A stretch of 217 nt of DNA. Source: Escherichia coli (GTDB lineage: Bacteria; Pseudomonadota; Gammaproteobacteria; Enterobacterales; Enterobacteriaceae). The position numbers and the translations under genes are program-made. Numbering within the stretch: the stretch's first letter is position 1; every line of letters begins with the position of its first letter. A model generated the notes under the pieces. It was not told where the DNA came from and made no database searches. It saw only the letters and a list, made by a program, of their open reading frames with translations. The stretch is from NCBI RefSeq assembly GCF_003334765.1, contig NZ_QOWT01000149.1. One strand, written 5' to 3'. Below are positions 1-217 of this stretch, piece after piece.

Positions 1-63
1 CCGGACCATCTGATAGTCGGTGGCAGCCAGGTTTTCTCCTTTGCGGAACACGGTCTGCTTTAA
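1..63 (+). CDS. yeeS: 3' end of a RadC-like (JAB/MPN-domain, YeeS/YfjY-family) protein; 5' end lies upstream of the window
   Basis: Frame 1 reads without stops from position 1 to TAA at 61-63, giving PDHLIVGGSQVFSFAEHGLL*. This matches the C-terminal pattern I recall for RadC-family proteins (DH-L/I-I-V/I-G ... S-F-A-E-x-G-L/W-L/I). The symbol is assigned by synteny with the downstream DUF987 gene, not by sequence identity; the paralogs yfjY and ykfG cannot be excluded. Only 20 codons are visible. Confidence 0.75.
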   Translation, partial: PDHLIVGGSQVFSFAEHGLL

Positions 64-64
64 C

Positions 65-91
65 CCGTCACCGTCACCACCACATCACACC
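65..91 (+). repeat. C/A-rich short tandem repeat tract in the intergenic spacer (CCGTCA x2, then CAC/CA units)
   Basis: Direct reading: CCGTCA at 65-70 and 71-76, followed by CCACCACATCACACC at 77-91. The tract is almost devoid of G and T. Function, if any, is unknown. Confidence 0.4.
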
Positions 92-117
92 TGTTTTCAC
101 TTTTATCTTCTGTCTTC

Positions 118-122
118 AGAGG
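118..122 (+). promoter_or_regulatory. Shine-Dalgarno / ribosome-binding site for the downstream DUF987 gene
   Basis: AGAGG at 118-122 lies 9 nt upstream of the ATG at 132-134, which is acceptable spacing for base pairing with the 16S rRNA anti-SD. Confidence 0.55.
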
Positions 123-131
123 TATCACACC

Positions 132-217
132 ATGAAAATCATCACCCGTGGTGAAGCCATGCGTATTCACCAACAACATCCGACATCCCGTCTTTTTCCG
201 TTCTGTACCGGTAAATA
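132..217 (+). CDS. yeeT: 5' end of a DUF987 / YeeT-family small protein of unknown function (about 73 aa in full-length homologs); 3' end lies downstream of the window
   Basis: ATG at 132-134 is preceded by the AGAGG SD and is the first canonical start in this frame. The frame is open to the window end, giving MKIITRGEAMRIHQQHPTSRLFPFCTGK plus a partial codon. This matches from memory the N-terminus of E. coli YeeT (MKIITRGEAMRIHQQHPTSRLFPFCTGKYRWHG...). The paralog ypjJ cannot be excluded from this fragment alone. Confidence 0.85.
   Translation, partial: MKIITRGEAMRIHQQHPTSRLFPFCTGK

What the first reader, a model, noticed from the sequence alone, without database searches (positions are those of the whole stretch)
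64..131. C/A-rich repetitive leader upstream of the DUF987 start codon
The spacer contains the tandem hexamer CCGTCA twice, followed by CAC/CA repeats (65-91), then a T-rich segment (92-117) before the SD. CA-rich leaders have been reported to enhance translation in E. coli, and short tandem repeats can vary in copy number by slipped-strand mispairing. Either could modulate expression of the downstream gene. This is speculative; the tract may simply be low-complexity spacer.
Basis: partly seen in the sequence, partly recalled or inferred. Interest (0 to 1): 0.25.

Follow-up and report, generated by a model that had tools for sequence, protein, structure and literature searches.

The report
Ordinary leader with variable hexamer repeat
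The C/A-rich repeat is real and its copy number varies (one to three) between E. coli strains, but it evolves like neutral filler inside an Escherichia-specific spacer whose only conserved part is the T-rich stretch and ribosome-binding site in front of the yeeT gene.

Summary
CCGTCA is tandemly duplicated at 65-76. It is followed by a C/A-rich run to 91, a T-rich run at 92-117, the SD AGAGG at 118-122 and the DUF987 (yeeT-like) ATG at 132.

Copy number varies: 86 one-copy and 34 two-copy alleles among 120 metagenome copies, three copies in 5 of 5,426 E. coli genomes, and no zero-copy allele.

The repeat is not hypermutable. It needs 13 parsimony steps, against 5-19 for ordinary SNPs. The C/A tract varies as fast as third codon positions (9/27 versus 17/48 sites). 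Modelled RBS accessibility is flat for 0-6 copies.

The T-rich/SD half is constrained (2/31 variable sites, P=0.003).

The 62-74-nt spacer is confined to the Escherichia yeeS-yeeT-type lineage. In 78 of 79 loci from other Enterobacterales, and in both K-12 paralogs, the two genes lie -4 to 20 nt apart.

No RNA family, structure, promoter or terminator was found. rut-like composition and GcvB complementarity are leads only.

Verdict: an ordinary intercistronic leader carrying a neutral short repeat polymorphism. Interest is low.

The parts
1..63 (+). 3' end of the JAB/RadC-family gene (yeeS-like), ...SFAEHGLL, stop TAA at 61-63
   Evidence: Translation. RefSeq annotation of the 100%-identical locus in E. 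coli D8 and of K-12 yeeS.
65..76 (+). Tandem hexamer CCGTCA x2. It is a copy-number polymorphism with 1, 2 or 3 units among homologous loci.
   Evidence: The indel is exactly one unit in alignments A1 and A3. There are 86 one-copy and 34 two-copy alleles in 120 metagenome loci. Three copies occur in 5 E. coli genomes. No zero-copy allele was found.
77..91 (+). Degenerate continuation of the C/A-rich tract (CCACCA CATCAC ACC). It has two ACA motifs (82-84, 87-89) and an 8-nt core, ACATCACA (82-89), complementary to GcvB R1. One allele (T43) lacks the CAACCA unit.
   Evidence: Sites 78-81, 88 and 91 vary among 17 unanchored copies.
92..117 (+). T-rich (U-rich), pyrimidine-rich segment directly 5' of the SD. 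It is the conserved part of the spacer and a candidate S1 or standby contact region of the yeeT translation initiation region.
   Evidence: Only 1 of 26 sites varies, and 0 of 19 in 100-118, among 17 unanchored copies. For 92-122, Fisher P=0.003 against third codon positions. Pi is 0.007 for 101-117 against 0.08-0.10 at third positions in 102 metagenome alleles.
118..122 (+). Shine-Dalgarno AGAGG, with 9 nt between it and the ATG
   Evidence: Read directly from the sequence. The GAGG is shared with the short-junction paralogs, TGAGGTATTACATG.
123..131 (+). Variable SD-to-AUG spacer (TATCACACC). In this allele ATCACACC repeats positions 84-91.
   Evidence: 4 of 9 sites vary; pi is 0.13.
132..217 (+). 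5' end of the DUF987 gene (yeeT-like)
   Evidence: Translation; annotation; protein alignment A2.

Best explanation
Positions 64-131 are an intercistronic leader on the polycistronic mRNA of a CP4-44-type island (DUF932, antirestriction, JAB/yeeS, DUF987/yeeT, cbeA, cbtA). The ancestral arrangement, kept in nearly all Enterobacterales and in the K-12 paralogs, has the DUF987 start -4 to 20 nt from the JAB stop, with the SD at or overlapping the stop codon. That layout is typical of translational coupling. In the Escherichia yeeS-yeeT-type lineage about 55-65 nt were inserted between the stop codon and the SD. The leader has two halves that behave differently. (a) The T-rich segment plus SD (92-122) is under purifying selection. 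It most likely acts as the unstructured, pyrimidine-rich ribosome and S1 landing region that lets yeeT be initiated on its own, now that it is too far from the yeeS stop for tight coupling. This role is inferred. (b) The C/A-rich hexamer-periodic segment (65-91) is unconstrained, G-poor filler. It gains and loses 6-nt units by replication slippage or unequal pairing, giving 62-, 68- and 74-nt spacers. The window carries the two-unit allele. Shown: the anatomy, the taxonomic restriction, the 1-3 copy polymorphism, the contrast in constraint, the absence of structure, and the absence of an Rfam family, sigma-70 promoter or terminator. Inferred: the S1/standby role of the T-rich half, the loss of coupling, and the neutrality of copy number for expression.
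For: The tract is taxonomically restricted. The spacer is -4 to 20 nt in 78 of 79 DUF987 loci from other genera and 68 nt only in E. albertii. It is 8 nt in K-12 CP4-6 and CP4-57, reading CTGCTTTGAGGTATTACATG. The polymorphism is documented. The repeat is not hypermutable: 13 parsimony steps, against 5-19 for flank SNPs with minor-allele counts of 20-45. Constraint differs between the halves: 65-91 has 9/27 segregating sites, third positions 17/48, and 92-122 has 2/31 with P=0.003; pi values are. The leader is unstructured: MFE -6 kcal/mol, z -0.7, and z -0.9 with flanks. Copy number does not change modelled RBS opening energy, 10.3-10.8 kcal/mol for 0-6 units. The tract is never found in another context: the spacer-centred query gives 12,642 places against 12,927 for the whole window, phages give none, and the plasmid hit that was inspected lies in the same island. 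Literature: S1 binds single-stranded A/U-rich RNA about 11 nt upstream of the SD, and unstructured tails act as standby sites (PMC5934652).
Against: No expression data were available, so both the role of the T-rich half and the neutrality of the hexamer number are inferred. Conservation of 92-122 could reflect some other function, such as a protein or sRNA binding site or an RNase E site. The metagenome sample was anchored on positions 55-64 and 81-100, which may depress diversity nearby. The unanchored sample has only 17 sequences. CA-rich tails can stimulate translation in a length-dependent way in reporters (PMC5934652), so a modest quantitative effect of copy number is not excluded. The source of the inserted sequence was not identified.
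Confidence: 0.6

Rival explanations
1. The C/A-rich tract is a translational enhancer or ribosome standby site for yeeT. Its length, set by the hexamer copy number, quantitatively tunes expression of yeeT and possibly of the downstream cbeA-cbtA toxin-antitoxin genes.
For: ACA motifs lie at 82-84, 87-89 and 127-129. ACA and C/A-rich elements up to about 45 nt upstream of the start codon enhance translation in yifK, dppA and gltI (PMC3879156). CA-repeat tails enhance translation in a length-dependent way (PMC5934652). The tract is G-poor and unstructured.
Against: The tract evolves at the rate of third codon positions (9/27 versus 17/48 sites). C88T in the ST131 and O145 alleles destroys one ACA. 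The repeated unit CCGTCA contains no ACA, so extra copies add none. RBS opening energy is unchanged for 0-6 copies. The tract lies 41-67 nt upstream of the AUG, with the conserved U-rich segment between it and the SD. Copy-number states behave like neutral SNPs.
Confidence: 0.2
2. The C-rich, G-poor, unstructured untranslated spacer is a Rho utilisation (rut)-like site. When yeeT is poorly translated, Rho loads there and terminates transcription before cbeA-cbtA, giving conditional polarity or silencing of the island.
For: The strongest C>G bubble of the operon is centred on the tract. The 78-nt C-G skew is 0.256, in the top 0.1% of windows in L001:5849-10573 and the top 0.4% of the 16-kb locus. 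Composition is C 38%, G 10%, 69% pyrimidine, with 16 YC dinucleotides. There is no secondary structure. The published descriptors come from PMC6144790.
Against: Only 62-74 nt are untranslated, flanked by two translated ORFs, whereas rut sites are usually about 80 nt or more of naked RNA. No (YC)N9-13 x6 motif starts in or near the tract. The conserved part is U-rich rather than C-rich, and the C-rich part is unconstrained. No Rho data for this locus could be retrieved.
Confidence: 0.08
3. The C/A-rich element is the target of the GU-rich R1 seed of the sRNA GcvB, or of another sRNA, which would repress yeeT translation by masking an enhancer.
For: There is an 8-bp perfect core, ACAUCACA (82-89) with UGUGAUGU of GcvB R1, extended to a duplex of -19.5 to -20.9 kcal/mol. 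This is better than 90-98% of shuffles of the same spacer. GcvB typically targets CA-rich repeats in or upstream of RBSs (PMC3879156).
Against: 29-41% of random 68-nt windows from E. coli loci pair with R1 at least as well. The core is mutated in natural alleles (C88T in ST131 and O145), and the tract is unconstrained. No experimental interactome entry could be found; the supplements are not held.
Confidence: 0.04
4. The repeat is a contingency (phase-variable) simple-sequence locus that switches expression on and off by slipped-strand mispairing.
For: Copy number differs between strains.
Against: There are only 1-3 units and the second units are often diverged (CCGTTA, CCGCCA, CCATCA). Homoplasy is no higher than for ordinary SNPs. 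The repeat lies between a stop codon and an SD, not in an ORF or between promoter hexamers. No promoter is predicted. A 6-nt unit cannot shift a reading frame.
Confidence: 0.02
5. The spacer hides another element: an internal promoter, a small ORF (frame-2 ORF 20-154, ...PSPSPPHHTCFHFYLLSSEVSHH...), a structured RNA, or an antisense gene.
For: Positions 92-122 are conserved. The 6-nt indels preserve the frame-2 reading frame.
Against: There are no sigma-70-like sites on either strand and no plus-strand terminator. All Rfam hits are far below gathering scores and are eukaryotic snoRNA families. Folding z-scores are -0.9, -0.7 and +0.2. The frame-2 ORF overlaps both genes, has no start codon within the spacer, and acquires a TAA in the C117A alleles.
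Confidence: 0.03

Closest known systems
C/A-rich (ACA) translational enhancer elements targeted by GcvB (gltI, dppA, yifK; Sharma et al. 2007 as cited in PMC3879156; Yang et al. 2014, PMC3879156)
   Same: A C/A-rich, G-poor, unstructured element with ACA motifs lies upstream of an SD, within the distance range reported for gltI (45 nt). It has an 8-nt match to the GcvB R1 seed.
   Different: In the known targets the motifs are conserved and functionally required. Here the tract evolves like neutral sequence, and one ACA is lost in natural alleles. The complementarity is not above genomic background. The gene belongs to a mobile island rather than to amino-acid transport. No functional data exist.
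Ribosome standby sites and S1-dependent A/U- or U-rich enhancers 5' of the SD (de Smit and van Duin model; Sterk et al. 2018, PMC5934652; Boni et al. 1991 as cited there)
   Same: An unstructured, pyrimidine/U-rich stretch of about 26 nt directly abuts the SD and is the conserved part of the spacer. CA-rich unstructured sequence lies further upstream.
   Different: Standby sites were defined for structured RBSs and 5' tails. Here the RBS is not predicted to be strongly sequestered, and the element is intercistronic. S1 binding was not tested.
Tight, translationally coupled JAB/RadC-DUF987 junctions of paralogous islands (K-12 ykfG-ykfH in CP4-6 and yfjY(lfgB)-ypjJ in CP4-57)
   Same: The two genes are homologous, the gene order is the same, and the GAGGTAT...ATG ribosome-binding core is shared.
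   Different: The paralogs have an 8-nt spacer with the SD overlapping the TGA stop. The window lineage has a TAA stop followed by a 62-74-nt leader.
Simple-sequence contingency loci (phase-variable repeats in Haemophilus or Neisseria; general knowledge)
   Same: A short tandem repeat whose unit number differs between strains.
   Different: There are only 1-3 units, no elevated switching, the position is not in an ORF or promoter spacer, and a hexamer unit preserves frame.
Rho utilisation (rut) sites / C>G bubbles (PMC6144790)
   Same: Strong local C>G skew, low structure, and many YC dinucleotides.
   Different: The untranslated stretch is short, there is no regularly spaced six-fold YC motif, and there is no termination evidence.

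Membership tests
C/A-rich (ACA) translational enhancer / GcvB target element | C/A-rich sequence with ACA motifs inside or up to ~45 nt upstream of the RBS | tested here: met
   ACA lies at window 82-84, 87-89 and 127-129. Positions 65-91 are 81% C+A.
C/A-rich (ACA) translational enhancer / GcvB target element | Motifs conserved among homologs (as for yifK across Enterobacteriaceae) | tested here: not met
   9 of 27 sites segregate, the same rate as third codon positions. C88T removes one ACA in the ST131 and O145 alleles. The element is absent from all non-Escherichia homologs.
C/A-rich (ACA) translational enhancer / GcvB target element | Complementarity to GcvB R1 beyond background | tested here: inconclusive
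   There is an 8-bp core and a duplex of -19.5 to -20.9 kcal/mol. This is better than most shuffles of the spacer, but 29-41% of random genomic windows match it.
C/A-rich (ACA) translational enhancer / GcvB target element | Removal lowers translation; GcvB represses | not testable with these tools
   This needs reporter fusions and gcvB genetics.
S1-dependent U-rich enhancer / ribosome standby site | Single-stranded A/U- or U-rich stretch immediately 5' of the SD | tested here: met
   Positions 92-117 are 62% T and 85% pyrimidine and abut AGAGG. The spacer MFE is only -6 kcal/mol, z -0.7.
S1-dependent U-rich enhancer / ribosome standby site | Sequence under functional constraint | tested here: met
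   2 of 31 variable sites in 92-122 against 17 of 48 third positions, P=0.003. Pi is 0.007 against 0.08-0.10.
S1-dependent U-rich enhancer / ribosome standby site | S1/30S binding and stimulation of initiation | not testable with these tools
   This needs toeprinting, S1 depletion or reporters.
Phase-variable simple-sequence contingency locus | Long array of identical units with high-frequency gain and loss | tested here: not met
   Only 1-3 units occur, with diverged second units. The state needs 13 parsimony steps against 5-19 for SNPs.
Phase-variable simple-sequence contingency locus | Repeat placed in an ORF or between promoter elements so that unit number switches expression | tested here: not met
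   The repeat lies between a stop codon and an SD. No promoter is predicted. A 6-nt unit preserves frame.
Rho utilisation (rut) site | Uninterrupted C>G skew over a ~78-nt window | tested here: met
   Skew is 0.256, in the top 0.1% of windows in the operon.
Rho utilisation (rut) site | Regularly spaced YC dimers, (YC)N9-13 x6, on about 60-80 nt or more of untranslated single-stranded RNA | tested here: not met
   No six-fold motif starts in L001:8040-8135. The untranslated length is 62-74 nt between two ORFs.
Rho utilisation (rut) site | Bicyclomycin-sensitive termination downstream | not testable with these tools
   No dataset for this locus could be reached.
Known RNA families (Rfam 15) | Match at or above the family gathering score | tested here: not met
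   The best hit scores 20.1 bits against a gathering score of 41 (SNORD18, minus strand). All hits are implausible.

The most novel reading that the evidence does not exclude
The Escherichia-specific insertion turned a translationally coupled JAB-DUF987 gene pair into an uncoupled pair with a regulatory leader. The leader would be a C-rich, G-poor entry site for Rho and/or a C/A-rich enhancer that can be masked by an sRNA such as GcvB. It would gate expression of yeeT and the downstream CbtA/CbeA toxin-antitoxin genes, with hexamer number (1-3) setting the gain.
Probability: 0.08. Interest if true: 0.45.

Novelty: new member of a known kind. Interest (0 to 1): 0.13.

Why it matters
It matters little. 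If the best explanation holds, this is a routine case of how an intergenic leader is built: a constrained ribosome-landing segment plus neutral, slippage-prone filler. It is also a small evolutionary note. One Escherichia lineage of a widespread island module separated two genes that are tightly juxtaposed everywhere else. The practical value is modest. The 6-nt length polymorphism is a harmless marker that can confuse alignments of these highly paralogous islands. The result also warns against reading regulatory meaning into a two-unit repeat. It would only bear on control of the CbtA/CbeA toxin-antitoxin module if the leader proved to be a Rho- or sRNA-responsive switch.

Tried and rejected
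1. Tandem Repeats Finder on the window found nothing, because the array is too short.
2. Rfam at permissive E-values gave only sub-threshold snoRNA and Mu-gpT-DE hits, which were rejected.
3. The promoter and terminator scan found no sigma-70 site. The only terminator-like hairpin is on the minus strand inside the yeeT start and looks like chance.
4. Folding both strands gave no z-score beyond -0.93. The CUUCUG/CAGAGG hairpin over the SD is matched by 25% of shuffles, and natural variants break it without compensation.
5. I considered the spacer as a degenerate duplication of the yeeS 3' end (repeat 31-42 / 93-104, spacing 62). Only a 12-mer at 83% identity supports this, and no repeat elsewhere in the island involves the tract. 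It was not pursued.
6. A dispersed repeat or mobile element is rejected. The spacer-centred query gives no more places than the whole window, phages give none, and the one plasmid hit inspected lies in the same island.
7. The frame-2 ORF is rejected, because a TAA arises in the C117A alleles.
8. GcvB duplex prediction with the full-length sRNA was meaningless, with the observed energy equal to the shuffle mean. Restricted to R1 it is not above genomic background. One script hung on a faulty shuffle routine.
9. The literature held nothing on the yeeS-yeeT spacer. The GalR operator assigned to yeeS lies about 200 nt upstream of the window. YeeT appears only as a weak antirepressor candidate. Supplements with the GcvB regulon and Rho maps are not held, and one search returned nothing.

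Full report
**What is in the window.** Positions 1-63 encode the C-terminus of a JAB/RadC-family protein (...SFAEHGLL, stop TAA at 61-63). Positions 132-217 encode the N-terminus of a DUF987 protein (MKIITRGEAMRIHQQHP...). The window is 100% identical to a chromosomal locus of E. coli strain D8. There it lies in an island with the gene order GTPase, Ag43, DUF932, antirestriction, JAB, DUF987, cbeA, cbtA-family toxin, DUF5983, DUF957, DUF4942. This is the yeeS-yeeT junction type of K-12 prophage CP4-44. Related copies occur at 12,927 places in 4,797 of 5,426 complete E. coli genomes.

**Checking the observation.** The description is accurate. CCGTCA lies at 65-70 and again at 71-76, followed by CCACCA CATCAC ACC to position 91. 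Positions 65-91 are 56% C, 26% A and 7% G. TGTTTTCACTTTTATCTTCTGTCTTC (62% T) lies at 92-117, AGAGG at 118-122 and the ATG at 132.

As single-sequence statistics these features are only mildly unusual. An exact tandem hexamer occurs in 3.9% of shuffles, C+A richness this high in 7%, and T richness this high in 1%. Tandem Repeats Finder reports nothing. The comparison below shows that the duplication is real.

**Does copy number vary?** Yes. Many BLAST hits cover the 217-nt query with 211 nt of record. Alignment shows that the difference is exactly one CCGTCA unit. K-12, O157:H7 and DG342-2 have one unit; the window and strain 20A24 have two.

- A synthetic three-unit query found true three-unit alleles in 5 E. 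coli genomes.
- A synthetic zero-unit query found none; the best full-length hits are one-unit alleles.
- Second units are often diverged (CCGTTA, CCGCCA, CCGTAA; CCATCA in E. albertii). Strain T43 has two CCGTCA units but lacks the next hexamer, CAACCA.

The C/A tract is therefore a short, hexamer-periodic, indel-prone array, giving spacers of 62, 68 or 74 nt.

**Is it hypermutable or regulatory?** Nothing suggests so.

- On a neighbour-joining tree built from the flanking coding sequence of 102 distinct alleles, the one-unit/two-unit state needs 13 parsimony steps. Ordinary flank SNPs of similar frequency need 5-19 steps, and shuffled states need 27 on average. This family recombines, and the repeat behaves like any other polymorphism in it.
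- In an unanchored sample of 17 copies taken across the BLAST identity range, including E. albertii, 9 of 27 sites in 65-91 vary. That is the same rate as third codon positions in the flanks (17 of 48; P=1.0).
- Modelled opening energy of the RBS (-18 to +12 around the AUG) is 10.3-10.8 kcal/mol for 0-6 hexamers.

**The constrained half.** The T-rich segment plus SD (92-122) has only 2 of 31 variable sites (P=0.003 against third positions), and 100-118 has none. In the metagenome sample, pi at 101-117 is 0.007. Third positions have 0.08-0.10, codon positions 1 and 2 have 0.009-0.023, and the SD-AUG spacer 123-131 has 0.13. That sample was anchored on positions 55-64 and 81-100, so those positions were excluded.

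**Where the tract comes from.** In K-12 the paralogous junctions ykfG-ykfH (CP4-6) and yfjY/lfgB-ypjJ (CP4-57) read CTGCTTTGAGGTATTACATG. They have an 8-nt spacer with the SD overlapping the stop codon. Among 79 DUF987 loci from other Enterobacterales genera (Yersinia, Serratia, Photorhabdus, Erwinia, Citrobacter, Klebsiella and others), 78 have -4 to 20 nt between the JAB stop and the DUF987 start. Only E. albertii has 68 nt.

So the tract is a derived insertion of roughly 55-65 nt between the stop codon and the GAGG, specific to the Escherichia yeeS-yeeT-type lineage. It was never seen elsewhere:

- The spacer-centred query gives no more genomic places than the whole window (12,642 against 12,927).
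- Phages give no match.
- The 15 plasmid-collection hits are almost all E. coli records. The one I inspected, a Klebsiella oxytoca plasmid, carries the same island, and its DUF987 protein has the same accession as in E. coli.

I could not identify the source of the inserted sequence.

**Other elements tested.** No Rfam family comes near threshold. There is no sigma-70-like promoter on either strand and no plus-strand terminator. No fold is better than shuffles on either strand, with z of -0.9, -0.7 and +0.2. The frame-2 ORF across the spacer acquires a stop codon in natural C117A alleles.

**Mechanism.** Most likely this is an ordinary intercistronic leader. The insertion moved the yeeT RBS too far from the yeeS stop for tight termination-reinitiation coupling. 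The conserved, unstructured U-rich stretch abutting the SD then serves as the landing region for the ribosome and protein S1. S1 contacts single-stranded A/U-rich RNA about 11 nt upstream of the SD, and unstructured upstream RNA acts as a standby site (PMC5934652). The C/A-rich part is G-poor filler that changes length by slippage with no detectable consequence. The functional steps are inferred, not shown.

**Rivals.**

- *C/A-rich enhancer.* ACA and C/A-rich enhancers are real (PMC3879156), and CA tails stimulate translation in a length-dependent way. A modest tuning effect is therefore not excluded. The neutral evolution of the tract, the loss of an ACA in the ST131 and O145 alleles, and the lack of ACA in the repeated unit all argue against it.
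- *rut-like Rho site.* The tract is the strongest C>G bubble in the operon (skew 0.256, top 0.1%). It has no six-fold regularly spaced YC motif and only 62-74 nt of untranslated RNA.
- *GcvB target.* GcvB R1 can pair with an 8-bp core at -20 kcal/mol, but 29-41% of random windows pair as well.
- *Phase variation.* This is rejected on array length, position and rate.

**Verdict.** The feature is a new but ordinary example of a known kind. Interest is low.

Noticed in passing
window 84-91 and 124-131: A perfect 8-nt direct repeat, ATCACACC, flanks the T-rich segment plus SD (spacing 40 nt) in this allele. Most alleles, including K-12, have ATCCCATT at the second site, so the repeat is allele-specific. 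It could be a trace of how the T-rich part was inserted, or it could be chance.
   Followed up: partly
L010:40-83 (Kluyvera ascorbata, closest outgroup DUF987, 74% aa identity): Its 17-nt junction reads TGA ACCTGGAGTACACCCCA ATG. ACCTG and GAGTACACC resemble window 89-93 and 119-131, which flank the T-rich segment. This hints that the T-rich part and the C/A part were inserted separately. The similarity is too short to test.
   Followed up: no
L220:279-495 (E. coli P50): Homology to the window starts only at about position 123, just 3' of the SD. The JAB gene and the whole tract are replaced by unrelated sequence next to an inovirus Gp2-family gene, yet the DUF987 ORF is intact and annotated.
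   Followed up: partly
L002:2804-2819 (K-12 yeeS, ~200 nt upstream of the window): A predicted GalR operator, GTGAAGAGGGTTTCAC, listed in PMC5110547 lies inside yeeS. The paper also lists a site at 2076502 labelled yeeR-yeeT. It lies outside the window and is unrelated to the tract.
   Followed up: partly
window 107-122: A small hairpin, CUUCUG-UCUU-CAGAGG (-6 kcal/mol), would sequester the SD. It is not better than shuffles, and the natural variants (T111C, C117A, G119A) break it without compensation.
   Followed up: yes
L009 (Mesorhizobium caraganae, 464-nt contig, coverage 0.74); L046 and L066 (Chryseobacterium sp. 18061): DUF987 loci of Enterobacterales type turn up in assemblies labelled as unrelated taxa. 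The Mesorhizobium contig is 95% identical to E. coli yeeT at very low coverage. These are probably contamination or mixed-culture assemblies.
   Followed up: no
L005, L212 (cbeA-family antitoxin frameshifted), L217 (downstream antitoxin-like gene with an internal stop), L219 (yeeT frameshifted), L001:9224-9400 (DUF5983 truncated): Several copies of the module carry pseudogenised neighbours, so many of these islands are decaying. This fits relaxed constraint on parts of the locus.
   Followed up: no
L004:666-808 and L217:666-811: In some one-copy alleles the gene after DUF987 is not cbeA. It starts 18 nt after yeeT and is annotated as a hypothetical protein in one strain and as 'antitoxin of toxin-antitoxin stability system' (pseudogene) in the other. 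The downstream cargo of the module is therefore variable.
   Followed up: no
L007:1920-2869 (K-12 CP4-57): The current RefSeq annotation names yfjX and yfjY as lfgA (putative antirestriction protein) and lfgB (CP4-57 prophage protease). That implies recent functional work on the JAB paralog, which I did not trace.
   Followed up: no
window 142-154, minus strand: A terminator-like hairpin, TCACCACGGGTGA followed by TGATTTTCAT, lies on the minus strand, antisense to the yeeT start. It is a single hit against 0.2 expected in shuffles and is probably chance.
   Followed up: no
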